From the NCBI GenBank assembly GCA_038087875.1, contig CM075988.1:1984001-2048000 (forward strand): a DNA stretch of 64,000 nucleotides. Direction: 5' to 3'. Of the stretch, positions 1-33,508 are shown piece by piece. Made by a program: the position numbers and the translations under genes. The stretch is from Malacoraja senta. Lineage: Eukaryota. Positions within the stretch are counted from its first letter, which is position 1. Every line of letters begins with the position of its first letter. The notes below the pieces were generated by a model that was not told where the DNA came from, did not search any database, and worked only from the letters and a program-made list of their open reading frames with translations.

Positions 1-589
1 ACCATCCAGCCCTTTTACAGAATGTGTTTCCCAGTCTATGTGTGGAAAATTGAAATCTCCCACAATCACTACCTTGTGCTTACTACTAATATCTGCTATT
101 TCCTTACATATTTGCTCTTCCAATTCTCGCTCCCCATTTGGCGGTCTATAATACACCCCTATAAGTGTTGCTACACCTTTCCCATTTCTCAGTTCCACCC
201 AAATAGCCTCCCTAGACGAGCCCTCTAATCTATCCTGCCAAAGCACTGCTGTAATATCTTCCTTGACAAGCAATGCAACACCCCCGTTACTCCAGCTTTT
301 TGTGTCTATCTTTGGTTTAAACCAGCATCTGCAGTTCCTTCCAACCTCAGTAAATGTGACAATGATTGTCAGATGCACCGACATCAGAATAATTAAATTC
401 TTACCTGCAGCAGCATTACCATGCCTGTAAACACAATACTCATAGATTATGAGAATGAGAATGAGAATGAATACGTTTATTGGCCAAATATGTACACATA
501 CAAGGAATTTGCCTTGGTGCTCCGCTCGCAAATATCAACACGACATACAGTAACAATTAAGAATGACACATGAGACATTAAACATTAAT

Positions 590-860: not shown

Positions 861-3036
861 CTTGTTGGGAAGAGGCTGTTCCTGAACCTGGTGGTCATGC
901 CTCTTAGACCCCTATACCTTCCTGGTACGAGCAAAGTGAGAACATGGCCAGGGTGGTGTAGGTCTTTGTGATGATGTTGGCAGCATTGTTGAGGCAGTGC
1001 CTCTTACAGACCCCTTCAATGGTGGGGGTTAGTACCTGTGTCCACCACTGTCTGTGATGTTTGTCACCCAGTGGTCTCACTGCCCCCATCCCAGGGACAT
1101 CTCCTGACCACCCAGAGTGAGGGAGGTCCATGGAAGAAGGATCAGGGAAGCCTGACTAAGGCAGCGACTGTAGATGTTGAGACTGGTGTTTGTGAGGGAG
1201 CAGGGACAAGAGCATTGACTGTTATATAGTCCAGGCAAGTCCAAGCAAGGCCCGGATGAGAGCCCGAACATGACATCACTGTGGTCCTCACCACAACATG
1301 ACAGGTCAACTAAGATTACACGCGTGAAGTTTAACATGCAGCCAGCATGAGGGCCCGTGCCTGATGTCTGCCTGAACACTCCCTGTTTGAAAAGATGTTT
1401 TAAGAAATACTAGACTAAGTGGGATTTGTTGGGTCCCTGTCACACGGGAGGCCTGGTCCCCCAACGCAACCCATTCCCCAACGCAATATTCCACCACTCA
1501 CTTGTTCCCCCAATGCAACCAGTTCCACAATGCAATATTCCACCATTCACCCATAGCCCCCAACTGCGCAGGGGCGGCTCATTTCCCCTCATCCCCCAGC
1601 ACTCCCTCCCCCTCCTCTCCACCCTCCCTCTTCATTCCCCTCACATCCTCCCCTCCCCAATCCCTCCCTCACCTCTCCCTCCCTCTCCATTCTCCTATCC
1701 TCAGTCACTCCCTCCCTCCATAACTCCTCTCCCCTCACCTCCTCCCTTCCCCAATCCCTCCCTCACTTCTCCCTCCCTCTCCTTTCTCCTATCCTCAGTC
1801 ACTCCCTCCCTCCATAACTCCTCTCCCCTCCCTACCCTCCTCCTATCCCTCTATCCCCCACCTCCTCTACTCCTCACTTCCCCCGATCCACCCCACAATC
1901 CCTCCCCACCTCCCCCACTGCCCTCCTCTCCCTCTATTCCCCACACCCTACCTCCCCCACTCCCCCTCCCTACCCCCTCCTCTCCCTCAATCCTCCCACT
2001 CTCCATCCTCACCTCCCCCACTTTCCCCCCTCTCCCTCCCTACCCCCTCCTCCCACTCAATCCTCCCACTCTCCCTCCTCTCCTCCCCAGGATCTCGAGG
2101 GTGCCGCTCCTTTCCCTCCTTGTGTGCCCGGAGCAACAGCGACGCCATCCTCAGAGCTAGGCTCAGTACCCAGGCCCCAGATCATCATCCTTGCCTCTCC
2201 CCACCCCCGGAGCCGCAGCCTCAGTAAAGACGCACACGGGAACCCTCCCCAAACTGTGGGGGCGCTGTTTTAAGTTAATATTTTTAAAACGTTAATAATT
2301 TTTAAAATACACCATCAATCTGAACAAAACTTGTTTCATTTACAGCACGGGACAATATTGAGTATGGTGGGGCAAAAAATTTAGTAATATCCTGTACCGT
2401 TTTTGCACAGTTAGAGGTACAACACAAACCTGCAAACAAACAAGATGAGAGTTTTAGTAATATACTAGACCAATTGCAGACCCATTGGATCTGGACCCCG
2501 AACATGCTTCAGACTGGTTCCTGAACGTCCTTCAGCATCTTGACGGCATAGACACAGAGGACGGCGAAAAGCAGAGGGGGAAGAGCCGATGTTTGGCTTG
2601 AGCCAGCATGAGAGAGCCGGCCCGGGGTAGTGGAGGAGAGGCGGGCGGCAGCAGCTAAAATCGCTAGCGAAAGAAAAAAAATGTCACGTTTTTGGAGCAG
2701 AGCCGGGCAGCAGCAGCCGTTATGGTGGCTGGCCAGCAGGAGGTGACAAAATGAGTGTGGGGGGTGGGGGGTGGGGGGGGGGAGGATGGATTTTATTTTA
2801 AAATGTGTACATAAAAATGTCTAAATCTAATAAGGAGTGTGTCAGGGTATGTAAAGTGTAATGTCTAGCGAAATGGAAAAAATCTCGGAGTTTTCGCGTG
2901 TGGTTTTGGCGGAGCAAGGAATCAAAGGCCAAATCTGACACAAACACACACACCCGCACTCCCACACACACACAGAGTTTTAATAGTATATAGATAGATA
3001 CTAGACCAAGTGGGACCCTTTGGGTCCCTGGCACAT

Positions 3037-3245
3037 GGGAGGTCTGGACCCCAACGCAACCTGTTCCCCCAATGTAATATTGGACTACTCACCCACAGCC
3101 CCCACGGGAGGTCTGGACCCCAAAGCAACCTGTTCCCCCAATGTAATATTGGACTACTCACCCACAGCCCCCACGGGAGGTCTGGTCCCCCAACGCAACC
3201 TGTTACCCAACATAAGATTCCACCACTCACCCGTTGCTCCAATGC
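3037..3245. repeat. 69-bp tandem repeat (x3) of the Helitron subterminal module
   Basis: GGGAGGTCTGG starts at 3037, 3106 and 3175. Confidence 0.9.
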
Positions 3246-5349
3246 AACATGTTCCCCAAATGCAATATTCCACTACTCACCCATAGCCCCCAACTGTGCA
3301 GATCGGCTCATGTTTCTCCCTCCCTCATTTTATACTTTATAAAAAATGCAATCGCACAATATTTTTTTATTCTTTAATGTGATATAGGTGCCACTGACAA
3401 GGCCATTAAACTTTGCTGTGGCTTTGCAATCACATATGTGCTGGGTTAGGCTGGCAGATTCTTCCCCTGAAGGACATTTCCTGTCAAGGACTCAATGGCA
3501 TGGGATAGCAACATTGTAGCTCGGGCATTTCTGATAAAACTGCCAGTTCAGATTTTAAGATTCCTTCTCAATGCGGGATTTTGTATATTTTTAAATGTCA
3601 ATAACTTGTGAAATAAAACATCAATCTGAACGAAACTTAACACAAACGACCACAGGACAATGTTGAGTAAGGTGGTGCAAAATCTTTAGCACTACCATGT
3701 GCCGTTTTGGCGTAATTCCGGGATCACATGGATATGCGCCCACGCATAGACAGATAGATAGAAACAAACAAGATGAGAGTCTTAGTAATATACTAGACCA
3801 AGTGCAGACCCGTTGGGTCTGGACACCGAACGTGCTTAAGACCCCGGGGTGTGAGATCCCAAACGTGCTTCAGACCCCGGGGTGAAAATCATTAGCGAAT
3901 AAAAACCAGAACATGTTTCAGACCCCGGGGTGAAAATTCAGAACGTGCTTCAGACCCCTGGGCACTGAATGTGCTTCAGAACCCAGGGTTTTAGAGTCCG
4001 AACGTGATTCATACACCGGGGTGAAAATCGCTAGCGAAAAAAAGATGGCCTCGTTTTCGGAGCAGAGGCGGTCGACAGCAGCCGTTATGGAGGAGACAAA
4101 ATGAGTGAGTGGGGCGGGGGTGGTGATGGATTTTATTTTAAAATGTGTACATAAATACGACGAAATGTAATCAGGATTGGCTAATCGTAAAGTAAAATGA
4201 AATCTCTACCGAAATGGAAAAAATCTCAGCGTTTCTGCGTGCGGTGTTGGCGTAGCGCGGTATCAAAGGGGCTGGCTGGCACAAGTCAAGCAGACATACT
4301 CAGAAAAAATTGTGAGTAGGAGGGTGGAGGGATGGGGAGGGATGGGGGAGGGAGGGGAGGAGGGAGATGGGTTAAGGGAGTGAGGGGGAAGAGTGTGGAG
4401 GGAGGGGGAGAACGGTGGGGAGAGAGGGGAAACAGTGGGGAGGGAGAGTGGAAGGGGGAGGGGTAGGGACAGTCCATCTGTTCCCCATTCCCTATCACCC
4501 CCAATCATCTTTCTCTATTACCACACACGTGACGATGCCCTTCGACACAGGCTGCGGGGGTGGGGGGAGGGGCTGGGGCTGGGGCTGCTGCAAAGGCATA
4601 TGTAAATGGATCCATTCCGATTGGACATCTGTGAGCATTGGGCATTGTGACATCACACAAGGGAACCTTGACTAACATTCTATGGCTGAGAGCTGTTTTT
4701 TTAAACATTTTGAAATGTTGGGGGGGGGGGAGAAGTATTTTATTTCAAAAAGTGTACATAAACACGACGAAATTTAATCAGGGTTGGCTATTCGTAAAGA
4801 AAAATGAAATCTCTTTAGAAATGGAAAAAAATATCGGCGTTTCTGCATGCGGTGTGGGCGTAGGGCGGTATCAAAGGGGCTGGGTGGCACAAGTCAGGCA
4901 GCCGGACGGCAGCCGGTTGGACGGCACCCACAGAGTTTTAATATATTATACTAGTCCAAGTGCAGACCCATTGGGTCTGGACACCGAACGTGCTTAAGAC
5001 CCCGGGGTGTGAGATCCCGAACGTGCTTCAGACCCCGGGGTGAAAATCATTAGCGGAAAAAAACCCAGAACATTTTCAGACCCCTGGGTGAAAATTCAGA
5101 AGGTGCTTCAGACCCCTGGACACTGATGGTGCTTCAGAACCCGGGGTTTTAGAGTCCGAACGTGATTCAAACACCGGGGTGAAAATCGCTAGCGAAAAAA
5201 AGATGGCGTCGTTTTGGACTCTCCCTCGCGATCTTCCAGAGTGACTGACTCATGTCCAGGCATCCGGGGTTTTATTGTCCTGCCCTCCCCCCCCCCCCTG
5301 GAAGGGGCATTACCTTCATCATGGTGAATGACCTGAGGGGGACCAATAT

Positions 5350-8300
5350 CCTGGCGGGGAGATTTGGCGGGGAGATTTGCAAAGGCTACTGGGGAGACTT
5401 TAAACTAGAATGGTCGGGGGGAGGGACTCAAATAGAGAAAGCTATTAGACAGTATGTGAGGCAGGAGGCAGAGAAGGAAAGCACTCAGACCCAACATGTA
5501 GGGGTAAAGAAGAAAACAATAATAAACAGAGAATAAGAGGTGGTGGGGTTCTTAAATGGGTGAGCAGAGAAACAGAGGGGTGTAAAATGCGGACAGAAGC
5601 AATAGGTAGCAAGGTGAAAAGTAAAAGTGGCAGGCAGACAAATCCAGGACAAAAATCAAAAAGGGCCACTTTTCAACATAATTGTAAAAGGGGTAAGAGC
5701 GTTGTAAAAACAAGCCTGAAGGCTTTGTGTCTCAATGCAAGGAGCATTCGTAATAAGGTGGATGAGTTGAACGTGCAGATAGCTATTAATGATTATGATA
5801 TAGTTGGGATCACGGAGACATGGCTCCAGGGTGACCAAGGCTGGGAGCTGAACATCCAGGATATTCAATATTCAAGAGGGATAGAGAGAAAGGAAAAGGA
5901 GGTGGGGTAGCGTTGCTGGTTAGAGAGGAGATTAACGCAGTGGAAAGGAAGGACATTAGCTTGGAGGATGTGGAATCGGTATGGGTAGAGCTGCGAAACA
6001 CTAAGGGGCAGATAACGCTGGTGGGTGTTGTGTACAGGCCACCTAACAGTAGTAGTGAAGTTGGGGATGGCATAAAACAGGAAATTAGAAATGCGTGCAA
6101 CAAAGGCAAAACAGTTATAATGGGTGACTTCAATCTACATATAGATTGGGTGAATCAAATTGGCGTGGGTGCTGAGGAAGAGGATTTCTTGGAATGTATG
6201 CGGAATAGTTATCTAAACCAACATGTAGAGGAACCAACGAGAGAGCAGGCTATTCTAGACTGGGTATTGAGTAATGAGGAAGGGTTAGTTAGCAGTCTTG
6301 TTGTGCGTGCCCCCTTGGGCAAGAGTGACCATAATATGGTTGAGTTCTTCATTAGGATGGAGAGTGACATTGTTAATTCAGAAACAACGGTTCTGAACTT
6401 AAAGAAAGGTAACTTTGAGGGTATGAGACGTGAATTGGCCAAGATTGACTGGCAATTAGTTCTAAAAGGGTTGACGGTGGAAATGCAATGGAAGGCATTT
6501 AAAGACTGCATGGATGAACTACAAAAATTGTTCATCCCAGTTTGGCAAAAGAATAAATCAGGGAAGGTAGTGCATCCGTGGATAACAAGGGAAATCAGGG
6601 ATAGTATCAAAGCAAAAGATGATGCGTACAAATTAGCCAGAAAAAGCAGCATACCAGAGGACTGGGAGAAATTCAGAGACCAGCAGAGGAGGACAAAGGG
6701 CTTAATTAGGAAAGGGAAAATAGATTATGAAAGGAAACTGGCAGGGAACATAAAAACTGACTGCAAAAGTTTTTATAGATATGTGAAGAGAATGAGATTA
6801 GTTAAAACAAATGTAGGTCCAGTTGCAGTCAGAAACAGGTGAATTGATCATGGGGAACAAGGATATGGCGGACCAATTGAATAACTACTTTGGTTCCGTC
6901 TTCACTAAGGAAGATAAATAATCTGCCGGAAATAGCAGGGGACCGCGGGTCAAAGGAGATGGAGGAACTGAGTGAAATCCAGGTTAGTCGGGAAGTGGTG
7001 TTGGGTAAATTGAATGGATTATAGGCCGATAAATCACCAGGGCCAGATAGGCTGCATCCCAGAGTACTTAAGGAAGTAGCTCCAGAAATAGTGGATGCAT
7101 TAGTGATAATTTTTCAAAACTCTTTAGATTCTGGAGTAGTTCCTGAGGATTGGAGGGTAGCAAACGTAACCCCACTTTTTAAGGAGGGAGAGAGAAAACG
7201 GGGAATTACAGACCAGTTAATCTAACATCGGTAGTGGGGAAACTGCTAGAGTCAGTTATTAAAGATGGGATAGCAGCACATTTGGAAAGTGGTGAAATCA
7301 TTGGACAAAGTCAGCATGGATTTACGAAAGGTAAATCATGTCTGACGAATCTTATAGAATTTTTCGAGGATGTAACTAGTAGAGTGGATAGGGGAGAACC
7401 AGTGGATGTGTTGTATCTGGACTTTCAGAAGGCTTTCGACAAGGTCCCACATAAGAGATTAATATACAGTATTGGGGTTCAGTATTGAATAGAGAACTGG
7501 CTGGCAAACAGGAAGCAAGGAGTAGGAGTAAACGGGTCCTTTTCACAATGGCAGGCAGTGACTAGTGGGGTACCACAAGGCTCAGTGCTGGGACCCCAGC
7601 TATTTACAATTTATATTAATGAACTGGATGAGGGAATTGAAGGCAACATCTCCAAGTTTGCGGATGACACTAAGCTGGGGGGGGCAGTGTTAGCTGTGAG
7701 GAGGATGCTAGGGGACTGCAAGGTGACTTGGATAGGCTGGGTGAGTGGGCAAATGTTTGGCAGGTGCAGTATAATGTGGATAAATGTGAGGTTATCCACT
7801 TTGGTGGCAAAAACAGGAAAGCAGACTATTATCTAAATGGTGGCCGATTAGGAAAAGGGGAGATGCAGCGAGACCTGGGTGTCATGGTACACCAGTCATT
7901 GAAAGTAGGCATGCAGGGAATAGTATGTTAGCTTTCATAGCAAAAGGATTTGAGTATAGGAGCAGGGAGGTTCTACTGCAGTTGTACAGGGTCTTGGTGA
8001 GACCACACCTGGAGTATTGCGTACAGTTTTGGTCTCCAAATCTGAGGAAGGACATTATAGCCATAGAGGGAGTGCAGAGAAGGTTCACCAGACTGATTCC
8101 TGGGATGTCAGGACTTTCATATGAAGAAAGACTGGATGGACTCGGCATATACTCGCTAGAATTTAGGAGATTGAGAGGGGATCTTATAGAAACTTACAAG
8201 ATTCTTATGGGAGGTACACAAAAATGCTGGAGAAACTCAGCGGGTGCAGCAGCATCTATGGAGCGAAGGAAATAGGCAACGTTTCGGGCCAAAACCCTTT

Positions 8301-8781
8301 GGGTTGCCTATTTGCTTCGCTCCATAGATGCTGCTGCACCCGCTGAGTTTCTCCAGCATTTTTGTGTACCTTCGATTTTCCAGTATCTGCAGTTCCTTCT
8401 TTAACAAGATTCTTATGGGGTTGGACAGGCTAGATGCAGGAAGATTGTTCCCGATGTTGGGGAATCCAGGACAAGGGGTCACAGCTTAAGGATAAGGGGG
8501 AAATCCTTTAAGACCGAGATGAGAAAAAACTTTTTCACACAGAGAATGGTGAATCTCTGGAACTCTCTGCCACAGAGGGTAGTTGAGGCCAGTTCATTGG
8601 CTATATTTAAGAGGGAGTTAGATGTTGCCCTTGTGGCTAAAGATATCAGGGGGTATGGAGAGAAGGCAGGTACGGGATACTGAGTTGGATGATCAGCCAT
8701 GATCATATTGAATGGCAGTGCAGGCTCGAAGGGCCGAATGGCCTACTCCTACATCTATTTTCTATGTATCTATGTATCTAT
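5350..8781 (+). mobile_element. CR1 LINE, near full-length ORF2 (APE endonuclease + RT) with frameshifts
   Basis: CLNARSIRNK, GITETWL, VYRPP, GDFN, SDH endonuclease motifs, and [36 protein letters not shown] motifs. Ends in a short TATCTATG-type tail. Confidence 0.93.
8212..8403. mobile_element. Inverted (palindromic) Penelope-tail insertion inside CR1
   Basis: Two inverted ~70-bp arms, with a 16-bp TSD ACAAGATTCTTATGGG at 8196-8211 and 8404-8419. Confidence 0.75.
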
Positions 8782-10896
8782 GACAAGCAAGAGGACCAAT
8801 CAGCTGATCTCAAGATTTTTTAAACACTGATAATTGTTTTATTTTTCATCGATCGGAAAAATCCTCAGGGCTGCCTCAGCGTAGGAGGCCAAAAATCATA
8901 GTGATATATGGTAGCGTTTTTTCTAAAATCAATATACAGCGCAGACAGGAAATTGTCACAATGCGACTTTTAGTTATATGGATACTGTAGATAGATAGAT
9001 GTCTTAATCAGTCACTATTATGCTAGAACTGAAAGCTGTTAACATTCTGTAGTCTTGCCTCTGTTGTTGGCAATGTTGTCATCATTGGCTCATGTTTGGC
9101 TTGAGCTGTGAAGGTTTAATTAACTTGTGCTTGTGACATGTTTTGGTTTAGGTTTATTATTGTCACGTGTAGCGAGGTGCAGTGTTATTCAGATAATATT
9201 ACACATGAATAAAATCAAGCCAAACTCAAGTAGGGTCTCGACTCGAAATGTCACCTATCCAGGTTCTTCAGAGAAGATGCCCGACCCTCTGAGTTACTCC
9301 AGAACTTTGTGTCTTTTTGTGTGTTAACTTGCATTTGCAGTTCTTTACACACTCATTACAATAACAGAATGAGGGGGTAGATACAGAGGGCAGAATATAG
9401 AATATAGTTCTCAACTTGTAGCCCACCAATTCCAAAGTCCAGTGCCCATAATGGGGATAGATGTGAATTGGGCAGTACCCGGCTTATGGAAGGACCATTC
9501 AGAAGCTGAGAATGGATGGAAATAAGCTATTGCTTTCAAGCTTTCTTTTTTATGCTTTCAAGCTTCTGTATTTACTGCCAGATGGGAGCAGGGAGAAGGA
9601 ATGGGACAAGTGTTCAGTAAAAGTTGACATCTTTCAATTCCTGATCCCTCAAGTAGATCATTGTTTCTAAGTTTGCGTAAAAGGGATACTTCCTCATTCA
9701 TTAGTATTTTGAATGGTCTGGTTTGAAACAAATTTTGAACTAAAGACTAACAAGTAAAACTTTAATTGATACTGGTATTTTTAACAGGGAACTTTATGGC
9801 AACAGCTAAAAGTGTTTCTGAGGTGAGATGTCGAGGTGAAGGCTGAATTCCAAGTGGTGCCATTTAGGCAATAGCTGGAGACGTTCTCATTTCATCAAGT
9901 TTTAATTACAGGGAATGAGTCAGATGTAATTTTCTCCAGAATGTTCTCACAGTTTGTTCCAACACCTTAAATAACACCACTGTGCCTGCAGGGAGTGGAG
10001 CCACAGGTTGTAATTTGCTGGGTTGTTTACAGGCCCATGCTGGCATGGAAGAGGGGGGGAATTGTACCGGCCCTTGCTAATTCCCTGGTGCCTAGCGCCT
10101 GTGAGGTTGGAGGCAGTAACGACGGACGCGATGAGTGAGGAGCATGGCTGGTAGGAGAGGAGAGGGAACCGGGGTTTGGCCTAACGCACCCTCATGGTCG
10201 GCTGCGGGAGGCTCCCACCCCTCGGGGAATAGTGGGCGGGCGAGGAGAGGGACGTGGTGTCTAAGGAAGGAGACGGCTGGAGACCTGCAACAGCCTGGGA
10301 CTTGCCTGGTACAGGCACCACAAGTAAGAACTGGAGCGCGGATTTTGAAAATGGTGCCAAAACATGGCGCCTCTTGTGAATACAGGTCATTAGCCTATTT
10401 CTATCACTTGCTAATCGGGGATCGGGGGAGTGACAATATTCTATTGGACTGATTGCAAGGAAAATAATTTCACTGTGTGACCACTTTGCAAATGTTACAA
10501 TAAAAGCACCATTGAACCATTGAACGTCATGATAGGAGGAAGGTCGGAGATGAAGCAGCTGAACTCGGTGGTCTGAGGACGCAGTGCCAAGCATCCCCTG
10601 TCGCGATGACCTGAGCTGGGATAATGGACCATCAGCAACCACACCCATCGGCCGTTGTGTGAGCTCTGACTACAAACAATCGCCCCTTTCCCCCTCAACC
10701 TTCCTTTCACTGTGGCTCCTTGAACCCACAGCCAGGCAAGAGCTGTCCTGATATCGAGGGCAGTCACTCTCTCCTCCACCCTGGAATTCACATGGCTGTG
10801 ACGGGGTCTGGATGTGAGAGACTCTGTCAAAATGCCACCTACAAGTGCTACCTGATAGCGCAATAATTAAATCAAAAAACACTGTCCGGAACATTA

Positions 10897-14310: not shown

Positions 14311-15609
14311 ACCATGCATGACCAGATGTGATAGGACTGCAGAACTTCAATCTGATGCATGGAGCGTGGGATCACTTAGGTTGATCTGTTGCACGCATAG
14401 GACACATGCTCAGGGGTATGGCATCACTTGGCTGGCACCAGGACATTTTTAGTTAGGCCCATTGCAGTTCATGTCTCACATCTGCATAGTTTTAAAATCC
14501 CAATGTTTTGAAAGAGGTGACTGTAGAGATAATTGCTCTGGTTATCGTCTTCCAAACATTTTATGGATTCTGAAATTATTACTGTGGATTGGAGGATAGT
14601 AAATGTGAACCCACTATTTATAAAAGAAAGGAGACTTAAAACAGAGAACTACTGGCCTATTAGTCTAATGGCCAGCACAGGGAAATACTGGAAAAATGTA
14701 ATGAAATATGCAGAAACAGAACACTTTGAGATGAATTGTTCCGAGTTTGTAGGATAGCGCCAGTGTATGGGGTTATCATTGGTTCAGTGCGGACTCAGTG
14801 GGCCAAAGGGCCTGACTCCACGCTGTATCTCTAAAGTCTAAAATAAAGTGCTTTACTTTGATTTAAGATTCTGATCTTGTATGGAATTAAATCACTTCCA
14901 GTCTTAATGTCAAATTCCCCAATGTTATGATCACTTTCTGTGAAAGGTCCCTTCAATACAAGATTAATAACTAATTATTTTTTTACTTCACACCATCTAT
15001 CTATCTATATAACTAAAAGTCTCATCTTGACCACTTCTTGTCTGCGCTGTATATTGATTTTAGAAAAAACGCTACCATATATCGCTATGATTTTTGGCCA
15101 TCTTACTCACAGTCCTCGTCTGCTGTGGCAGCCCTGAGGATTTTTCCGATTGATGAAAAATAAAAAAGTTATGAGTGTTGAGATCTTGAGATCAGCTGAT
15201 TGGTCCTCTCGCCTGCCAATCACCACGATGAAGGTAACGCCTTTTCCAGGAGGGGGTGGGGGGGGTCTATAAAACCAGGACTATAAAACCCCGGATGCCT
15301 GGACATGAGTCAGTCACTCTGGAAGATCGCGAGGGAGAGTCCACAACTGTGATTCTAATCTGTGAATCAACTGTGAGTCTGCAATGTACTTGCAATAAAT
15401 GATTTGTTAGCCCTTAATGACAATGCAATGAGTTGTTTGGCAATTTGGTGGCATGCACTCTGCTTGAAATGATATGAAATTGAATTTGGTGGCCTGCACT
15501 CTGCCTCGAATGCTATGAAATTGAGTTTGGCGGCCTGCACTCTGCCTGAAATGCTACGAAATTGAGTTTGGCTGCCTGCACTCTGCCTGAAATGGAATTG
15601 CAAGGAATA

Positions 15610-15870
15610 GCCCTGAGGGACTGCCAGCCCACCAGCCCTGAGTGACTGATCTGCCAGCCCACCAGCCCTGAGTGACTGAGCTGCCAGCCCACCAGCCCTG
15701 AGTGACTGAGCTGCCAGCCCACCAGCCCTGAGTGACTGAGCTGCCAGCCCACCTGCCCTGAGTGACTGACTGCCAGCCAACCAGGCCTGAGTGACTGAGC
15801 TGCCAGCCAGCAGGCCTGAGTGAGTGAGCTGCCAGCCCAGCAGGCCTGAGTGACTGAGCTGCCAGCCCAA
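15610..15870. repeat. ~30-bp minisatellite inside a Helitron unit
   Basis: About 8 copies of CTGAGTGACTGAGCTGCCAGCCCACCAGCC, preceded by ~35-bp GAAATTGAGTTTGG..CTGCACTCTGCC repeats. Confidence 0.95.
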
Positions 15871-16818
15871 GAATCCATTTGGCCCACATTGTCCATACAA
15901 GCCCTCTGGAAACCAGTCCCTTCACCCCACAACACCCATACTAGTGCTCCAGAAAGCCCCCAACCCCCCCCCCCCCCACTGGCCACCAATATTGGAATTG
16001 GTGGAGAGGTGGAATATTGTGTTGGGGGACCAGCCCTTCAGTGCGAACATGGGACCCAACGGGTCACACTTAGTCTAGTATACTATTAAACATCTCATCT
16101 TGTATGTATGTATACGTGTGTGTGTGTGTGTGCTTGTTTCCATATGCTCTTCTACCTTCGTCAAAACGCTAAGCGCTACAGTTTACATTTTTACAGATTA
16201 TTACTCACATTATCCCGGTAGACGCAATAAACATGTTCCCTTCACATTTCATGCTATATTTCATGTTATTGACGATTCAAGTTTGAAAAGAAGGGCAAAA
16301 AAGTTTCTCACACACAGCCTTTTTCCAGGACTTTCCACTGATGATGTCACAATGCCTCTCACAGTGCAACAAACACAATAGGCCCTCAAGCTGCCCAGTG
16401 CCAATGACATCACAATGGGACGTTACCAATGGTAACCACAGCTTCTCACAGACATCCTTTTTTCCAGGAGCTTCCAGTGAAGATAATCACAATGGGATCT
16501 TAAGCTGCCGAGTGCCACACCCCCCGCCCCTTCCTCCCCCTGGGTTATTCACACCCCCCACCCCCTCCCCCCTGGGTTATTCACATCCCCCACCCCACCC
16601 CTAGCGTTATTCCTGATTAAAGTTTCAAAAAAAGCCAAAACCACCTTTTAAAACACCAGCTTCCAGTGACGTCACAATGCTCCCCCCCTCCCAACGGTAC
16701 AGTGAAACAGAATATTCCACCACCTTCCAGTGACGTCAGGGGGAGGGCCTCATTTCAAAAACAGCTTCGTCAGCTCCCCAACGCACACCATTGGGGAAGC
16801 AGACCCAACGGGCACTTA

Positions 16819-17648
<830 letters not shown>

Positions 17649-18816
17649 TTAGTCTAATATACCTATAAAAGTCTCATCTTGACTGTCTGTATGTCTGTAT
17701 GTGTGTTGTATGTTTTATATCATCCTCAAAACGTGATGAACTAGCGCTTAAAGATTTACAAATTCTGACACATTTTTTTACCTCCATGCCGTTATCAAGT
17801 TCACTTAACATTTGATGCTATATTTTACGTTACTGATGATCAAAGCTTTCAAAAAAGCCTAATTTAACATTTTTACTGTTAAAATCCTTCCTGCCAGCTT
17901 CCAACACACTTCGATACAAAGTTGCAAGACAGGAACACTGAACTTTTCACCTCAATGGGACATCACAGCTTGAACAGGAGGGGGAGGGCGAATTGGTATT
18001 GCAATTGGAACTGCTGCGGCAGGCAGGTGAAGTGCAATTAGATTTATTTTTAAAGTCCACTGTGCCATCATAGCTCCTGGCAGCACAGAAGGGGGAGGGT
18101 CAATTGATATTGCAATTGGGAAAGTGCAATTGGAATATTTTTTTGAAAGTCCAGTGCCTGGGGAGGCAGGGGAGTGCTAGAATCTTACGTTCGGCAACGG
18201 GTTGAGTTGGGGGCAACGCCTCCCGTGGGAGCTACGGGTTAATGGTGCAATATTGCATTGTGGAACGGGTTGCGTTGGGGGACCAGGCCTCCCATGTGTC
18301 ACGGGTCCCACTTGATCTAGTAAGATCTAAAACTGCCTTTCTCAAGATAGTTCCTCACTTATCAAAAAACCCATCAGCATGCACCACATTAGTACCATTA
18401 ACAGCCAACTTATGCAGTCTACAGATATTTGTGCCATTGATTTTTATGTCTTGTTTAAAGTTCTGTGTGCATTCAAGTAAAGATTCTCCAGTTTCAGTGG
18501 TTCTATGTAATAAGGAGCAGTGCTGCTTGCACTCCTTCCATAGAACCTGCTCCTAGTTCCTACCCCCCCCCCTACACTGCCCCGCTTCTGACATGGACCA
18601 TGACAGCCAGATTCTCCCTCCCCTCCCACATTGTTTCCTCTCCAGCCCCGAGGAGATGACATAAACCCTGGTATTGAACAGAGGCCCCGAACTTCACCAC
18701 GTCCCTTTTCCCTCCTCTAATCTGAATGGCACCCTAGACACAGAACAGCACAGTAAAGACACAAAATGCTGGAGTAACAGCGGGACAGGCAGTATCTATG
18801 GAGAGAAGGAATCGGT

Positions 18817-19268: not shown

Positions 19269-19403
19269 TCAGGTTAGGCATGGTTGCTGCTCCTGTGCTG
19301 ACCTGGCCTCTTCCTCAGCCTCCACCTCCTCTGTCGTGGGGATGGAGTTTTTCTTTGGCCTCCCCTTGGGTTTGGTCGGAGCCTCCTGCCCTCCTCTCAG
19401 CAC
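19269..19403 (-). CDS. BARX2: BARX2-like terminal coding exon
   Basis: Acceptor tttctcccatgcag|GTG, phase 0 matching the previous exon. Translates [44 protein letters not shown], containing the Barx basic motif [14 protein letters not shown]. This frame is absent from the ORF track. Confidence 0.92.
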
Positions 19404-20556
19404 CTGCATGGGAGAAATGCGGTCCAACATCAGGCAAGTGATAGAAGGTAATGGGGGGACATGTCAAGCTCATCCATACACTCCCCGGGTGAATATCTAA
19501 TGTGCACAGAGCAGGCAGGCTGGGTGGGGCACACAGTGTCTGTTCATCTGGACTGAGGGGGGACAATACTGCTGTTACTTCCTGATATTGCAGCAAAGAA
19601 ATCCACCCAGTCTCACTTGCCCAGAGCCAAACCTGAGTGTAATTAATGATAAAACTTTAAGAACCAGAACTTTAAAATATTGGAGGAATTGTGGACGCAA
19701 TAATCGGTGAGAAAGTCGGACAGGATTGAGTGGACGCCAAGTGCCCCATTGGTACCAGGAAGTCGGTGGAGGAGGGTGACGAGAAGGAAACTCCAGAGGC
19801 AGCCATCCCACCAGCAGCAGAAGAACATTCAGTGTATACCACTGACGGGCATCATGGACACGGCTGTACTGACAATAAATGTAGTGACTATTGCCCAGTA
19901 TAATCATAGGAACAAACAGCACAGAAGCAGGCCCTTCAGCCCACCTCATCCATGCCGAGCGTGATGTCTGTCTACACTCATCCCAATTGCTTGCATTAAG
20001 CCCATATTCCTTTACCTTGAGTCTGAAGAAGGGTCCCGATCCAAAACTTCGTCTGTCCATGCCCTCCACAGATGCTGCCTGACCTGCTGAATTCTTGCAG
20101 CACATTGTGCCTTGCAAGATCCCAGCATCTGATGTTTCTTGTACCTACTTCCCTACATTTCTTACCAAATACCTGTCCAATGCCTTTTAAACTTTTGTCA
20201 TTTTATCTGCCTCTATCACCTCCTCTGACAGCTCTTGCAAAATAATCACCACCCTCTGTGTGAAAAAACGTACCCCTCAGATCTCCTTTAAATGTTTCCC
20301 CTCTCACCCTAAACCCTGCCCTCTACTAGATTCCCTGCCCTGGGGAATAGGCTCTGATTATCTATCTATGCCCGGCTGATGGCACTGCATGTCACCCACT
20401 CAACCTCACACAGTGAAAGCTGCATTTCACTGACAACTGGCATCTCATCCTTAGCTCTTTCACCCGAGAGCCACGATCTCCAGCACCATTCCCTCACTGG
20501 GGAAGGCCATTCACAGCCCAGGATAATGCCCTGCTGCTGAGAGTGGACAATCACTC

Positions 20557-20835
20557 TTTAGACTTTAGAGATACAGCACAGAAGCAGGCCCTTCTGTCCA
20601 CCGAGACCAGTGATCACCCCATACTCTAGCACTATCATACACACTATTTTACCAAAGCCATTAACCTACAAACCTGTATGTCTTTGGAATGTGGGAGGAA
20701 ACTTGAGATCCCAGAGAAAACCCATGCAGTTACAGGGAGAACGTACAAACTCCGTACAGACAGCACCTGAAGTCAGGATCGAACCTGGATCTCTGACGCT
20801 GTAAGGCAGCAGCTCCACTGCTGTGCCACCGTGCC
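20557..20835 (-). mobile_element. tRNA-derived V-SINE (HE1-like)
   Basis: Minus strand has A-box GGTGGCACAGCAGTGG, B-box GGTTCGATCC, the shared body and a CTAAAG tail. Confidence 0.85.
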
Positions 20836-21382
20836 GTCCCACTCCTGGCCCCAGGCCACTCCTGAAAGGCCTTTTGCTCCTTCAGTGAGGGAGTGCTGTC
20901 TCTGGTGAGCTGGGACTGACTCAAAGCCATGACTGGAGGAGATGCTCATGTTAAGGAGAATGAGGAAAGATTGTGGGACAGCGGGTAACAGGGATAAGAG
21001 CACTGTCTCAGCAGCCACTTCCTCCTTCTCTGCTCTGACTCAATTTGCCCAGTTGTAGCTGCATGAAAAACCAGGATGTATGCACTTCCTGAAGGAATCT
21101 CCAGGATCCTGCACCGATCCTGGACGGGCATATATGCAGGAAGCCAGTCAGTTGGTGGGACATGTCCTTCCCTGACAGAATGTGTGGGTCAAGTGGTGGT
21201 GAGCCCAGTGCTGGGGGTAGAGAGGGAAGGGTGAAGACAGCACAGGAGGACAGGAGTTCCCTGAGGATATCTTAACCGGCATTCAGTTGGGAATACTTGG
21301 GCAGAGCGATGATTCCAGGACAGGATGTCCTCCCTGGTGCCAGGGAGATGTCAGTCAGTGGAGCAGAACCTCCAAAGGCTAA

Positions 21383-21645
21383 AGGGCCTGTCCCACTTGG
21401 GCGTCATTTGCACATCATGCTGGTGGCGCACAAAGATTTTGTGAATCCCAAAATCTTGGGGCGCTGCGCGCGACCGCGCGTCACTGCCCACGCCACCACG
21501 TCTCACCAAGGGCCATGCACGTGTAATGCACGCCATGCGCGCATCATGTGCACGTCACACGTAAATGATGTAGCGTTGTGCGTCATGACGCGTAAAGGAT
21601 GTCGCGTAAATGACGCGCAAATAACGCCCGAGCGGGGCAGGTCCT
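21383..21645. mobile_element. Related Harbinger-type MITE with degenerate right TIR
   Basis: Left end TAA|AGGGCCTGTCCCACTTGGGCGTCATTTGC. The right end reverse-complements to AGGACCTGCCCCGCTCGGGCGTTATTTGC. The interior is CpG-rich. Confidence 0.7.
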
Positions 21646-22421
21646 TTCGGCCTCCTGTGGCCACTCTCAGAATGAGGTCCTGCAGGCACATTATTGGAAG
21701 GGTGGAAAGGGATTACACTGCAGGTTGTCAAAGGTGGCAATTAGCAGATGCTGGCTGGTGCCACAGACCAGTCACCACACAGACCAGGACAGAGTCAGGG
21801 TGGAGCAGTCAGTTGGTGCGGGGGGGAAGCTTCTGATTCCAGGCTCATTGTCACCTCTCTGGGGAAACCCGCGCACTTGTGGACGCATTAATGCTGCGAC
21901 ACGCCAGTGAGCCAGGAGCATGGGCAATGGTGCAGAACTTGCAGTGAGAAACAAAGCTTGTAGAGAACTGGAAGATAGCACCAGAGCAAGAAATAGTGAT
22001 AAGTGCAGTCAATAGTCAAGAGGGCTTTATTATCATATATACTGAAAACAGAACAATGAATTTCTTACTTGCAGCAGCATAGCAGGTCTGTAAACACAGT
22101 ACTCAAAAATAATACAATAAACAAAAGATAGTTAAATAAATGTAAATAAACAATATTAGTGCAAATCAAAAGCCCCTTGTGCAACCAAGACGTTTTGTAG
22201 TTCATCATTTAGTTGGGTCAAGTTGGTGTAAAATACTTTGTACATTGTTCAAATGTAATAAATGTGGTAAATAAGGAAGGTAAATGTAATAAATGGGGTA
22301 AATAATGGAAGGTAAATAAGGAAATAAGGAAGTATGTATCATTGGAAATTGATATAATATTGATATTGATTTCCTTTAAAGAGACAAATTGGATACAAGA
22401 GTCAAGTGTTTTATTGTCATA

Positions 22422-23145
22422 CTAGACAAAGTGGGACCAGTCACGCGGGAGGCCTGGTCCTCCAATGCAAGGGGGTGTGGATGATGGGGGGTGTGGGGGA
22501 GGGGGGACGTGGGGGAGGGGGGGTGTGGGGGAGGAGGTGTGTGGGGAGGGAGGTGTGGGGGAGGGGGTGGTGTGGGGGGAGGGGCTGGGGTGAGGGGAGG
22601 GGCTGGTGTGGGGGGGAGGGGATGGTGTGGAGGGGGAGGGACTCCACTCAGTGGCCACCGGCCGCAGCACCACACAGAACCTCCCGACTCCACACAGCGG
22701 CATACCCAACTCCACACAGCGGCTTTCCCGACTCCACACTGCGGTTTTCCCGATTCCACACAGCGGCTTTCCCGACTCCACACAACGGCTTTCCCGACTT
22801 CACACAACGGCTTTCCCGACTTCACACAGCGGCTTTCCCGACTCCACTCTTGTGGACTCAATCAGCACGGCTTGTTTACTCAGCCCTGCCTCCGGGGTTT
22901 TATTCTTCAGCGGGTGCCGGAAGGGGCGTTACCTTCATGGTGACTGACAGGCGAGAAGACCAATCTGCTGAACTCAGGATTTTTTAAACCTTCATAAGTT
23001 TTCTCATATTTCACCGATCGGAACAAAACTTGGTGGGTTGGAGCAGAGGCGAACAGTGAGTAGGGTGGCAAAAAAATATTGGGTAGCGTTTTTGCGCAAA
23101 TTTAATTACAAGTGGTCAAGATGAAAATTTTAGTAATAGTACAGA
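22422..23145 (-). mobile_element. Solo non-autonomous Helitron-like element
   Basis: Minus strand runs TCTGTACTATTACTAAAA...CTAG. Removing it restores ttttattgtcata|tgtcc, which resembles the LINE-tail repeat at ~25666-25685 (ttttattgtcatgtgtcc). This indicates an A^T insertion without TSD. Confidence 0.82.
22683..22848. repeat. 22-bp minisatellite
   Basis: About 7 copies of CCGACTCCACACAGCGGCTTTC. Confidence 0.92.
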
Positions 23146-23312
23146 TGTCCTGAAACGATGAATTACAGATATGTAAACATAGTAATCTGTAAACACCATA
23201 ATAAATGACAAAAAAAAGCTCAGTAATAAACAAACTAAATATTGCCAATTAAGGGTTCTTGAAGAGAAGTGGGGGAACCAAAAATGAAGGCGTTGAAGAA
23301 AGGCTATGATGG

Positions 23313-23608
23313 TGTTTAGTTTTGAGATACAGCGTGGAAACAGGCCCTTCGGCCCACCGAGTCCGCGCCGACCAGCGATTATCTCGTACACTACCACTAT
23401 CCAAGACACACTCGGGACAATTTACAATTTTACCAAAGCCAATTAACCTACAATCCTATATGTCTTTGAAGCAGAAACTGGAGATTCCAGAGAAACACAG
23501 GTCACGGGGAGAACGCACAAACTCCATACAGACAACACCCATAGTCAGGATCGAACCTGGGTCTCTGGTGCTATAAGGCAGCAACTCTACCACTGTGTCT
23601 CCGTGACA
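23313..23608 (-). mobile_element. tRNA-derived V-SINE (HE1-like)
   Basis: Same head, body and tail as the other copies. Confidence 0.85.
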
Positions 23609-23897
23609 CCCAGTGTTGGTTGAGGAGCACATTGTAGTCTTGTGCAGATGTACGCCCACTTAAGCTCTTTCCTCCTTTCTTTGTATTCCTCAAAGACCAC
23701 GTCTGATTCTATCCGCTTAAAACTTGCATGTGCTTCCTTTTTCTTTTTGACCAAATTTACATCTTTGGTAATTCAAGGTTCCCTTGTTAGTTCTAAACTT
23801 CAATCAACTGGCATTTAAACAACTCCCACACTTTAGATGTGGACTTATCGAATAACAACTGCTCCCAATGTACCCTCCTGAGCTCCTGCCTAATAAC

Positions 23898-25518
23898 TAG
23901 AGCCAGGATGTTTAGGTGCAAAAAATCTCTGAAATAGGCAGGCAAAAAGGCATAATAAAATTACAAAAAAGGCATGAAAAGGCATTTATTTCCACCACCA
24001 AAATATGGTTAAATATGATCATTATAAAGGTCTATTACATTAAATGACCAAAGTTGCCTGGTTGCACATAACTACCAGCATTTTTTTCAAATTATCTGGT
24101 GTTAAACTATGCCGCCTGTCAGACAGAATATGCTACAGCTGTGAAAAACTTATTTCTACCCCAGCTGAGGTCACTGGTGCATACCTGAAACAAGCTACAA
24201 ACTCTACATTCATGTCGATATCTTGTGCATTACAACTACCTTTGAGAACTTTAGTTTTGTATTTCTTCAAGATCTTTGTTAGCTAAAATCACTCTCTCAC
24301 ATTTTCCTTGTATGTCTTCACCTACATCGCCAGGAACTTTAAGTACAAAGTACAGCAAGTGAAGATGTAAACAACTGAGCAATAGTTCAGCTCTTTGACT
24401 TCTCCAATACTTCCGATGTCAAGAAATACTCCTTTGATGGTTGACCTGCCTCCAGTGTACCAATGACCACATTGGCAATAAATCTCCCCACAGCATCAGT
24501 TATCTCGTCTATTGAGATCGATATTTTGTTCCATGCAACTTCATCTCTAATTTTCTGCACAACAATGTTGAAGTTGCTGTCAACATAATTTTTCCATAAT
24601 GATGACTCGCTTGGTATATGTTCCTCTGTGTATTTCCCTAAAAAACCTCTGAGAGATTTGTTTTCCAATTTCCACAGTGGAATTCCAGCATCAATGAATG
24701 CGTTGCACAGATCACTCAAACTCAGATTTGCGATTGGAGCCAGAAGTAAATGTTGTGAGGAGACAAGCTTGCGTATTTCCCACCTTCTGTTTCTCTGCCG
24801 CCAACTTGTGTTTAGCTGTCTGTACATGCATGGAGATGAAATATTTTTTCTCATGATTCACTGCTTTCTCACATGCGTGGCAAAACAGCACACAGTTGTC
24901 TGTAGAGAATATAGCACTCCCGTACACTCTCACCAAATCGTTCTGTTTTTTACAAGGCGTTGACTTGACTTTAGGCATTTTGACGCTTGCAGGGGTAGAT
25001 CCTACAGGAGCGGGGATGCAGACCTCTACAGGCAGGCCAAGTATAAGCTAAGAAGAGGAATCAGAGCTTCCAAGGAAAGGTACTCTGAGAAGTTGAGGAG
25101 CAAGTTCTCAGCAAATGACTCTTCTTCAGTGTGGAAGGGCTTGCAAGAAATCACAAGCTACAAGAGGAAACCCCTCCTTGGACAATCGTCAGCTGACCAA
25201 CGACTGAACGAATTCTACTGCAGTTTCGATAAACAGAAACTTAACCCTGGTAACCCCAACCAACACTTCACGCCTACTCACAGCTTGACTCCAGTTTGCA
25301 AAGACTGGACCCTTTCCCGCGCACCCCTCTCCAATCACCATTTAACACCCACTTACAGCCGGGTTTCACCCCGGTGGTGTAAATTTTCTTGTAAGTTACG
25401 TTAAAACGGCAAAAAAGGCTGATTTAGGCACTCAATCGTAAAAAAGGCATTATCTTCTGAAATCATCAGAAAAAGGCATGAAAAGGCACATGGCATTTAT
25501 GGCTAAATCCTGGCTCTA
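23898..25518 (-). mobile_element. hAT DNA transposon with degenerate CGGBP1-like transposase
   Basis: TIRs TAGAGCCAGGAT(G)TTTAG and a perfect 8-bp TSD CTAATAAC (23890-23897, 25519-25526). Coding remnants are a CHAC..H....H zinc finger (24712-24978), AGIPLWKLEN..ISIDE (24387-24854) and a hAT C-terminal RYAPVTSAGVEISFS..ILSDRRHSL at ~24050-24200. Confidence 0.9.
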
Positions 25519-27274
25519 CTAATAACGTTGTTGTTTGCCTTTCTCCAATTTAGTACCTTCCTGCAAGATCCAGGCTTCTCCCTATTCAAAACAATCATGA
25601 CATTTGGAAACATGCATTAGGAAAAACAGGGATAGTCAAGAGTCAAGAGTCAAGAGTCAAGAGAGTTTTATTGTCATGTGTCCCAGATAGGACGATGACA
25701 TTCTTCCTTGCTGCAGCACAACAGAATATGTAAACATAGTACATAACAGGAGATATTGTTAACAGGGAAATCGTTGAAGCAATTTTTCCCTTGTTTCCCA
25801 CAATGTCCTAGGATACACTTGATCAGGTTTCCAGAATGTATCTTTCTTTACGCATCATAAGACACTAATACCTCCTCTTCTGCACCATTCTCTTGCCACA
25901 ACCATCTTTCCATTAATCCCCCCACTATCTAGAAATGTATTGATCGCTTTCTTGAAGATAATCCACAATGGATTCTCCAGAGCCTGACCTAGTGGAGGTC
26001 TAAGGATTCACCATCTGCTGGAGAAGTGCTGCATCCAAGGTCTCAGCTCCATTATGCTGACCCTGACCCCCCCAACATTAAAGTACACTTCCTTTGATGG
26101 CCACTTCCTGCGGAGTCTCAGTGTCCAGCGTTCCAAGCTCTTGTTCCTGTCCAAACACTGAGTTACTGCCGCTTCTTTCAATGCAATGTGTGGCATTTTC
26201 TGTCTTCCTCAAACTGGGGACACCAAGTACACACAGCTCTGTGAGGCAGTGTCGCTTGGCATTGGCATATTGGATAGATACCTGCATGTGGATGGGACAG
26301 TGCTAGTTGGCCGCGTGCACATCAGTTCAGGCACTCTACTTTCAGAGAGTTTCACCAGCCCAGGCCAGTCCAGATCTCGCTGACCCTCACCCTGTGCTTG
26401 TCTGGGGTCACAGACGGAGCAGATGCTTGGCCATTTGGGGGCCACAAAAGTGGTGACCACTGAAGTCCCAATTGCCCAGTGTAAAGCCAGTGTTGTGATG
26501 CCTTCTATCTGGAGGCATCACAGCTTGGTTTGGCAACTGCTCTGCCCAGGACCACAAGAAATTGCACAGCCCACTCCACTGCACAAACCAGCCTCCCTCC
26601 CACTGACTCCATCTACACCTCACACAGCCACAGGAAAGCAGCTAACATAACCAAGTTCACCCCAGTCATCACCACTTCTCCCCACTCCCATCATCAAAAG
26701 ATCCAAAAGCTTGAAAGTATGCACCACCCGATTTAGTAACAAATTCTTCCCCACTGTTGTCAGATTACTGAATGGAAGTGCCATTAGCTCGTGTGTAGTC
26801 CTGATCTACCTAATCGTGGACCTTGCACTGTTTTTTTAACTTTAATTTCTCTATAACTGTAACGCTACAATGCTGTAACACAATATTCTGCACTCTGGTA
26901 TTTTCTCTTTGCACTACCTGTTGTACTTGAGTATGGCTTGATTGTAATCATGTATGACATGATTTGTCTGGTCTAAAGAAGGGTCCCCACCCAAAACATC
27001 ACCTATCCATGTTCTCCAGGGATGCAGCCTGACCCACTTAGTTACTCCAGCTCTTTGTGACTGTTCATGTAAATCAGCATCCGCAGTTCTTTGTTTCTCT
27101 AGAGTATGATTTGACTGGATAGATAGATAGATAGATAGATAGATTCCTTTATTGTCATTCAGACCTTTCGGTCTGAACGAAATTCAACCCACACAACGAT
27201 ACCACACAAACAAAGTTTTTCACTGTATCTTGGTACATGTGACAATGATAAACAATACATTTACATAAAAATAT

Positions 27275-29565: not shown

Positions 29566-29574
29566 TCTAGTTAG

Positions 29575-30280
29575 GACTTTAGGAGGAGAGGAACACCCCT
29601 GTCCCCTGTCTCCATCAAGGGTGTGGATGTGCAGTTTACCAAGGAGTACAAATACCTTGGAGTTTGCCTGGCTGGTAAACTGGTCTGGTCCAGGAACGCT
29701 GAGGCAGTGTATAAGAAGGGACAGAGCCATCTGTACTTTCTGAGGAGGCTCCGCTCTTTCAACATCTGCAGTAAGATGCTGCAGATGTTCTATCAATCGG
29801 TAGTGGCTCATGCCATCTTCTACGCTGCTGTGTGCTGGGGCAGCAGGGCGAAGTCCGCGGATGCCAACAGAATCAACAATCTCATCAGGAAGCCTGGCTC
29901 CGTCCTGGGGCAGGAATTGGATTCATGGGAGGTGGTTTTGGAGGGGAGGATGCTCCTCAAACTGCGGAACATCTTGGACAATACAGCTCACCCCCTCCAT
30001 GACTCACTGGTCAACCTGACGAGTACCTTCAGCAACAGACTGGTTCCACCAAGATGCAGCACAGAACACCACAGGAGATCCTTTTTCCCTGTGGCTATCA
30101 AACTGTACAACTCCCCCCCCCCCTCTCCCCTCCCCACCTCCCCAATCTTTACACATCCACAATCCTGGACTTACCACTCGTCACTTTAATTTCATGTTTC
30201 AAGTATCTGTTGTGTTTTATGACCAATTTCCCTCCTGGGATAAATAAAGTTCTATCATATCATATCATTTCGTATCGTAT
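29575..30280 (+). mobile_element. Rex1/Babar-like LINE 3' end
   Basis: EYKYLGV..L.W..N...KK.Q..LYFLRRLRSF..FYQSVV..RSFFPVAIKLYN, followed by AATAAA and an (ATCAT)-like tail. Confidence 0.78.
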
Positions 30281-33250: not shown

Positions 33251-33284
<34 letters not shown>

Positions 33285-33508
33285 TTTGTACGTTCCTGCC
33301 GTGACCCTGAGGGTTTTTCTCCAGGTGCTCCAGTTTACTCCCATATTCCAAAGACATACAGGTTTGCAGGTTAATAGGTTTTTGGTAAAGATTGTAAATT
33401 GTCCCTAGTGTGTAGGATAGTGATAGTGTATGAGGATCACCTATAGTGTATAGGCACAGTGGGCTGGAGGGCCTGTTTCCACGCTGTATCTCTAAACTAA
33501 ACCAAACT
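31480..33508 (+). mobile_element. tRNA-derived V-SINE (HE1-like) split by the L1
   Basis: tRNA-like head (B box GGTTTGATCC) before 31574. The V domain and CTAAA tail resume after 33282. Confidence 0.85.
31575..33281 (+). mobile_element. 5'-truncated L1-clade LINE with poly(A), inserted in a SINE
   Basis: Uninterrupted ORF2 C-terminus to 32948 (SLIGRINAIKM..LP..LYLFQ, GGLALPNF..Y, C-x2-C-x8-H-x4-C knuckle). T-rich 3' UTR, ~31-nt poly(A) and a 15-bp TSD GAGTTTGTACGTTCC (31560-31574, 33282-33296). Confidence 0.95.

What the first reader, a model, noticed from the sequence alone, without database searches (positions are those of the whole stretch)
1410..8999. Five-unit heterologous Helitron train with repeated CTAG|TA junctions
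Seen: junctions at 2464/5, 3000/1, 3792/3 and 4950/1. On the minus strand, 3' hairpin types run GGGACCC, CAGACCC, GGGACCC, CAGACCC, CAGACCC from 1410 upward. Three TCTA-type stubs sit at the 5' end (8983-8999) and a further TA-TCTA sits at 2995-3000. Inference: a second independent self-insertion hotspot within 10 kb, downstream of BARX2. The stub tally fits approximately, not exactly.
Basis: partly seen in the sequence, partly recalled or inferred. Interest (0 to 1): 0.72.

Follow-up and report, generated by a model that had tools for sequence, protein, structure and literature searches.

The report
Helitrons stacked in each other's tips
Five small gene-less rolling-circle transposons (Helitrons) sit head-to-tail downstream of a BARX homeobox gene, most likely because new copies landed four bases inside the start of older copies, which carries the same short motif as their ordinary landing sites; such stacking is known, and the shared motif is a new but thinly supported lead.

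Summary
Five non-autonomous Helitron-type units lie on the minus strand at 1410-8999, with the junctions and hairpin order as stated. The junctions are CTAG|TA, not the CTAG|TC of rolling-circle concatemers: 5 of 6 junction tips in the window lack their first four bases, and TCTA runs sit upstream. The stub count is exact for the neighbouring train (3 of 3) and for the two lowest units here. It is 9 nt over for the top three, and a solo copy carries 32 nt of stubs, so stubs are not a counter. New lead: all 3 directly seen host sites, and 1 inferred, have TAAAA 8-10 nt past the A|T cut (background 40 of 7120), as the elements' own tips do. Best reading: tip-directed nested insertion, built mostly bottom-up. 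U2+U3 resemble U4+U5, so some units may have arrived as a composite. Helitron self-insertion at 5' ends and heterologous head-to-tail pairs are already published.

The parts
8983..8999 (-). Stub run: three TCTA (8999-8988) plus 5 unexplained bases (8987-8983); host A at 9000
8782..8982 (-). U1, 5' part, with its own TC start at 8982; 83% identical to the 5' part of unit A at 15002-15218
5351..8781 (+). LINE retrotransposon (endonuclease ORF; 75% over 1.5 kb to an RT-bearing copy at 27635-29149; short-repeat tail) inserted in U1; 5' limit approximate; the label CR1 is recalled
4951..5350 (-). U1, 3' part: first 140 nt like unit A (82%), last 266 nt like U2 (94%); CAGACCC hairpin and CTAG end. 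U1 is a chimera
3793..4950 (-). U2, 1158 nt; tip lacks TC start; internal duplicate of one module; CAGACCC hairpin and CTAG
3001..3792 (-). U3, 792 nt; tip lacks TC start; GGGACCC hairpin and CTAG
2995..3000 (-). TA plus TCTA spacer: read as 2 host bases plus U5's displaced first four bases (two-block parse), or as stubs imported with U4 (linear parse)
   Evidence: parse is inference
2465..2994 (-). U4, 530 nt; intact TCTA start; decayed CAGACCC hairpin and CTAG; homologous to U2
1410..2464 (-). U5, 1055 nt; tip lacks TC start; most decayed GGGACCC hairpin; CTAG then host T; homologous to U3
1397..1409 (-). Host 3' flank with TAAAAC starting 8 nt after the cut; no homology to any unit beyond the motif
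14996..18320 (+). Neighbouring three-unit train (A 14996-16078, B 16079-17657 with an inverted-repeat element near its 3' end, C 17658-18320); three TCTA for three units; host flank TAAAAC at +8
22422..23145 (-). Solo unit D, starts TCTG, ends CTAG, inserted A|T without duplication in a host repeat whose empty form occurs at 22010-22106 and 25651-25741; TAAAAC at +9
43673..46313 (+). Solo unit E in a LINE 3' region; 32 nt of TCTA-type repeats at its start, no internal junction found, 3' end deleted; the paralogous empty site has TAAAAG at +10
19290..53835 (-). BARX-family homeobox gene, last two coding exons found (about 53755-53835 and 19290-19403); context only

Best explanation
The block is a stack of non-autonomous canonical Helitrons built by tip-directed insertion. 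Shown: each unit has Helitron ends; three of the four lower tips lack their first four bases and TCTA runs lie upstream; host landing sites and element tips share an A|T followed 8-11 nt later by a TAAAA box. Inferred: a RepHel transposase supplied in trans nicks targets at an A|T with that box downstream. An element's own start (TCTA|TA..TAAAA) fits, so a newcomer lands 4 nt inside a resident copy, pushes TCTA upstream and brings a fresh target with it. The stack grew mostly from the bottom (U5 oldest). The simplest parse is two sub-stacks 2 nt apart, U4 in U5 and then U1 in U2 in U3. Some units may have been assembled elsewhere and arrived together. A LINE later entered U1. The stack is probably neutral debris with respect to the BARX gene.
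For: 0 of 6 junctions are CTAG|TC, and 5 of 6 lower tips lack the TC start. Intact relatives (U4, E, D) place the box at +13/+14 from TC and four stripped tips have it at +9 (U2 at +11), so about 4 nt are missing. Stub count is exact for A-B-C (3 of 3) and for U4-U5. Five different end/tip combinations occur among 6 junctions. D sits at an A|T without duplication, with two paralogous empty sites scoring 65 and 64 against 30-39 for 20 shuffles. TAAAA(C/G) lies at +8, +8 and +9 in 3 of 3 seen host flanks and at +10 in E's paralogue; background is 40 of 7120 AT sites for +8..10 and 188 of 7120 for +2..15. Flanks show no element homology beyond the motif. The hairpin folds in U1-U3 (-7.2, -7.2, -8.5 kcal/mol) and fails in U4 and U5 (-3.4, -2.4), which fits bottom-oldest order. 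Helraiser prefers AT-rich DNA, strongest on the 3' flank (PMC4778049).
Against: All evidence is from one 64-kb window that was picked for this feature: 10 units at 4 loci. The offset window was chosen after seeing the sites, and only 2 of 4 host sites are shown to be non-Helitron by paralogues. The top run has 9 nt more than two stubs need. The 3000/1 junction has the box at +19, off the rule. The motif alone does not explain the stacking (chance of 5 of 9 tip hits about 7e-5, of 3 of 7 about 6e-3, if any of 64 motif sites served equally), so a further factor is needed and is not identified. U2~U4 and U3~U5 repeat the same order, and CAGACCC ends are internal in 4 of 4 cases against 2 of 6 for GGGACCC ends (p about 0.07); both favour composites. 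The age order rests on 35-40 nt per unit. No transposase gene lies in the units.
Confidence: 0.66

Rival explanations
1. Composite mobilisation. A dimer (CAGACCC-ended unit plus GGGACCC-ended unit), or the whole train, formed once elsewhere and then moved as one Helitron, the transposase passing the inner ends. The locus then records one to three events, not five, and is not a hotspot.
For: U2~U4 (81% over 455 aligned nt) and U3~U5 (84% over 437 nt) lie in the same order; their junctions are 91% alike over 81 nt. B+C has the same end order. CAGACCC ends are never free (0 of 4). Whole-composite movement also gives exact stub counts. Composite Helitrons with several 5' termini move as units in Fusarium (PMC5148889).
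Against: Interiors differ greatly (530 vs 1158 nt; 1055 vs 792 nt), and U2's 3' end is closer to U1 (94% over 266 nt) than to U4 (88% over 50 nt). The outermost end, which whole-train movement needs, is the most decayed. Five distinct junction types still need five tip-directed events somewhere.
Confidence: 0.2
2. Rolling-circle concatemer or unequal crossing-over. One or two elements were multiplied in tandem in place, and the copies then diverged and recombined.
For: The dimer order repeats; U1's 3' part and U2's are 94% alike and adjacent. Tandem arrays with head-to-tail junctions are described for plant and bat Helitrons (PMC5876387).
Against: Circle junctions are exact CTAG|TC and 0 of 6 here are. 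Displaced TCTA runs are not predicted. The five units carry three different 5' modules and two 3' modules, and U2/U4 tips are unrelated to the U1 tip beyond the box (scores 17-22, shuffle level).
Confidence: 0.07
3. The TCTA runs are ordinary microsatellite growth, or a microsatellite the elements target, and the trains reflect only the general Helitron liking for AT-rich DNA and open chromatin near older Helitrons.
For: TCTA runs occur without Helitrons (27120-27143), and solo E has 32 nt of them. Helraiser prefers AT-rich flanks. Maize Helitrons prefer to insert near other Helitrons (as cited in PMC12477314).
Against: The paralogous empty sites of D and E hold no TCTA run. Five tips are cut at the same register. 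Counts match in 2 of 3 sub-stacks. Hitting tips by chance among about 7100 AT sites is about 7e-15 for 5 of 9.
Confidence: 0.07

Closest known systems
Canonical (Helitron1-type) non-autonomous Helitrons, e.g. bat HelibatN/Helraiser (PMC4778049, passages) and wheat Xuan (PMC13286980, passages)
   Same: 5' TC, 3' CTAG, a 17-nt hairpin ending 10-11 nt before the end, A|T target without duplication, AT-rich 3' flank.
   Different: No RepHel gene here. A spaced TAAAA box shared by target and tip is not stated in the passages I read; the Helraiser logo is a figure I could not see.
Self-inserted Helitrons with multiple 5' termini in Fusarium and Metarhizium (PMC5148889, passages and two sections; PMC13342296, passages)
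   Same: [quoted passage not shown]
   Different: Those are Helitron2-like elements with 31-85-nt repeated termini; here canonical ends, a 4-nt register and several subfamilies in a vertebrate.
Adjacent heterologous head-to-tail Helitrons in the maize r1 region (PMC2267711, passages)
   Same: Unlike units end to end, read as consecutive insertions.
   Different: The maize junction is exact CTAG|TC with two units; here CTAG|TA with displaced TCTA and up to five units.
Tandem TE dimers by double insertion in Drosophila (bioRxiv 10.1101/158386, passages)
   Same: Target preference produces tandems because insertion leaves a usable target.
   Different: There the target survives by target-site duplication; here there is none and the newcomer's own tip would be the new target.

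Membership tests
Canonical Helitron, non-autonomous | 5' TC terminus | tested here: met
   TC at 8999/8982, 2994, 14996, 23145 and 43673; the 5 stripped junction tips lack it
Canonical Helitron, non-autonomous | 3' CTRR terminus | tested here: met
   CTAG in 8 of 10 units, CTAA in B, end lost in E
Canonical Helitron, non-autonomous | 16-20-nt hairpin 10-15 nt from the 3' end (PMC13286980) | tested here: met
   7-bp stem, 3-nt loop in U1-U3 and a weaker one in A; decayed in U4 and U5
Canonical Helitron, non-autonomous | Insertion between A and T without target duplication | tested here: met
   D against two paralogous empty sites; A|...|T flanks for both trains, for which no empty site was found
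Canonical Helitron, non-autonomous | Autonomous RepHel partner with matching ends in the genome | not testable with these tools
   No genome held; no RepHel domain in the 21 ORFs scanned, of 64 listed
Helitron2 / Helentron | TT-type targets and asymmetric terminal inverted repeats (PMC5148889) | tested here: not met
   Targets are A|T and ends are TC/CTAG; short asymmetric inverted repeats were not searched unit by unit
Rolling-circle concatemer array | Exact CTAG|TC junctions between like copies | tested here: not met
   0 of 6 junctions; neighbouring units are mostly of different modules
Composite Helitron moved as one block | Same unit order with shared outer ends at unlinked loci | tested here: inconclusive
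   Not seen at the window's other three loci, but the dimer order repeats inside the train; no genome-wide data

The most novel reading that the evidence does not exclude
These Helitrons choose targets with the same sequence-specific contact they use on their own left end (A|T plus a TAAAA box at a set distance), and a transposase bound to a resident left end draws incoming copies there. Each insertion then renews the landing site and logs itself as a 4-nt stub, which gives an ordered record of subfamily activity and a sequence-level cause for Helitrons clustering near Helitrons.
Probability: 0.33. Interest if true: 0.62.

Novelty: new variant of a known kind. Interest (0 to 1): 0.4.

Why it matters
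Helitron target choice beyond the AT dinucleotide is poorly defined, and the reported tendency to insert near other Helitrons had no sequence-level explanation in the papers I read. A box shared by tip and target is directly testable by a flank logo and by mutating the box in a Helraiser-type assay. Ordered stacks would also date subfamilies relative to each other, and they warn that annotation tools will merge or mis-end such units. If the motif fails genome-wide, this is one more nested Helitron pile.

Tried and rejected
No whole genome is held, so family consensus building and the genome-wide junction census were not possible. Sequencing-run search: 24 of 24 listed runs hold part of 900-9900 (one coded organism at 0.65 and 0.56, six others at 0.25-0.40); none was laid, so this is no evidence, and unit presence/absence stays untested. 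Pattern scans: 0 hits in viral contigs, 0 for the 3' pattern in metagenomes, 8 loci for the 5' pattern, all 8 rejected as chance since none aligned to the window. Rfam: 0 matches. No paralogous empty site for either train. Rejected: a TA target duplication (D's empty sites show none); host flanks as decayed tips (scores within shuffle range for 30 of 30 pairs); a recent exact tandem duplication (81-84% identity, different interiors); the 534-aa ORF at 31344 as a Helitron transposase (LINE-like). Ten paper searches found no paper describing a 4-nt-register tip insertion, a TAAAA target box, or Helitron trains in cartilaginous fish; the library lacks most subscription papers, the Helraiser structure paper was not held, and figures and supplements were not seen. 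Earlier-findings look-ups by place and sequence were empty.
Full report
Observation. The region 1410-8999 carries five units on the minus strand, here U1 (top, 8999-4951) to U5 (2464-1410). Seven of the 8 CTAGTAT words in the window are element ends. A BARX-family gene on the minus strand has its last coding exon near 19.3-19.4 kb, so the train lies about 10 kb downstream. The names BARX2 and CR1, and my guess that the host is a cartilaginous fish, are recalled and come from no call.

Family. The window holds 10 related units at 4 loci: this train, a plus-strand train A-B-C at 14996-18320, and solos D (22422-23145) and E (43673-46313). D gives the cleanest test. Its flanks, brought together, match a host repeat at 22010-22106 and 25651-25741 (scores 65 and 64; 20 shuffles gave 30-39), which fixes its ends as TC...CTAG in an A|T site with no duplication. 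That meets the definition of canonical Helitrons in the passages I read of PMC4778049 and PMC13286980. The units are 0.5-2.6 kb, and none of the 21 ORFs scanned, of 64 listed, has a RepHel domain, so they are non-autonomous.

Junction anatomy. Rolling-circle junctions are exact CTAG|TC (PMC5876387). None of the 6 junctions here is. In 5 of 6 the lower tip starts at TATA; the TAAAA-type box follows at +9 in four of them and at +11 in U2. Intact relatives place the box at +13 (U4, E) or +14 (D) from the TC, so about four bases are missing, and the cut falls at the A|T inside TCTA|TA. A and U1 have a shorter tip (+11), which would imply only two missing bases if they were the model; I preferred U4, E and D because the stripped tips of U3 and U5 share their 5' module with E and D, and those of U2 and B resemble U4's. 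The missing bases appear upstream. A-B-C has three TCTA for three units. U4-U5 has two, preceded by TA. U1-U3 needs two stubs plus U1's own start and has 9 nt more. The tally is not a counter: E has 32 nt of TCTA-type repeats and no inner junction, and a (TCTA)6 run at 27120-27143 has no Helitron. Stubs can be inherited from a donor stack, as modelled for Fusarium (PMC5148889 section 16), or grow by slippage. U1 is a chimera, A-like for about 350 nt (82-83%) and U2-like for its last 266 nt (94%); a sixth unit lost by deletion could account for one surplus stub, which is a guess.

Target motif. The three host 3' flanks seen directly have TAAAAC at +8, +8 and +9 from the cut, and the paralogue of E's site has TAAAAG at +10. 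Of 7120 AT sites outside the elements, 40 have TAAAA at +8..10 and 188 at +2..15, so three of three has a chance of 2e-7 to 2e-5, and the two sites proven to be host DNA 3e-5 to 7e-4. The box was taken from the tips, but the offsets were chosen after seeing the sites, and n is four. The flanks have no element homology past the motif (30 of 30 pairs within shuffle range). Helraiser prefers AT-rich DNA most strongly on this same side; its logo is a figure I could not see, so the box may already be visible there. The 3000/1 junction breaks the rule (+19). The motif cuts the target pool from 7120 to 64 sites, but 5 of 9 tip hits would still have a chance near 7e-5. Something more, such as transposase bound to resident left ends or movement of composites, is required and is not identified.

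Order and number of events. The hairpin folds in U1-U3 and fails in U4 and U5, which fits growth from the bottom and speaks against the whole train moving last, since that needs U5's end. This rests on 40 nt per unit. Against five separate arrivals: U2 resembles U4 and U3 resembles U5 (81% over 455 nt and 84% over 437 nt), their junctions are 91% alike over 81 nt, and CAGACCC ends are internal in 4 of 4 cases against 2 of 6 for GGGACCC ends (p about 0.07). Even so, five distinct end/tip combinations among six junctions need at least five tip-directed events somewhere in the genome's history (inference).

Comparison. Insertion at another copy's 5' end, a three-copy tandem and inherited multiple 5' termini are described in fungi (PMC5148889, passages and sections 10 and 16; PMC13342296, passages). 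Unlike Helitrons end to end by consecutive insertion are described in maize (PMC2267711, passages). Preference for sites near other Helitrons is cited in PMC12477314 (passages; the primary paper was not read). Tandems from target preference are described for Drosophila elements with target duplications (bioRxiv 10.1101/158386, passages). Helraiser showed no local hopping, so nearness to a donor is not an evident cause. Ten searches returned no paper on a fixed 4-nt register or a shared tip/target box; supplements and figures of these papers were not seen and may bear on that. Unchecked notes from this scan report similar piles in other genomes, one present or absent as a single block; these are leads only, but they raised my weight on the composite rival and suggest such stacks are common.

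Verdict. A real stack of non-autonomous canonical Helitrons, most likely built by insertion into older copies' tips (0.66), with composite movement the main rival (0.20). The arrangement is a variant of a known kind. The shared A|T..TAAAA motif is the part worth a genome-wide test. Interest 0.40.

Noticed in passing
window 8196-8419: Inside the LINE, a palindromic insert (74-nt arms, 96% complementary, 8207-8376) is flanked by a 16-nt direct repeat at 8196-8211 and 8404-8419; its arms have many copies in the window.
   Followed up: partly
window 16815-17650: An inverted-repeat element with a long TG run sits in the last 20 nt of unit B, between hairpin and end, at a TAA/TTA-like site; it resembles a PIF/Harbinger-type MITE (label recalled).
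   Followed up: partly
window 14996-18320: The three-unit train ends about 1 kb past the last BARX coding exon, so it may lie in or near the gene's 3' untranslated region; not tested.
   Followed up: no
window 43673-43704: Solo unit E begins with 32 nt of TCTA-type repeats, either stubs carried from a tall donor stack or slippage; its 3' end and about 14 nt of flank are deleted.
   Followed up: partly
window 22422-22460 and 18286-18320: Units D and C lack the left arm of the usual terminal hairpin, but by eye their GGTCCC arm could pair with an upstream GGGACC/GGACC, possibly a subfamily variant; not folded.
   Followed up: no
window 31344-32948: A 534-codon open frame in AT-rich DNA looks like the C-terminal part of a LINE ORF2 (weak zf-RVT hit below the curated cut-off).
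   Followed up: partly
window 19403-53755: The last two BARX coding exons found are separated by about 34 kb rich in LINE fragments and holding solos D and E.
   Followed up: no
window 27120-27143: A (TCTA)6 run on the minus strand with no Helitron tip after it, probably a retroelement tail.
   Followed up: partly
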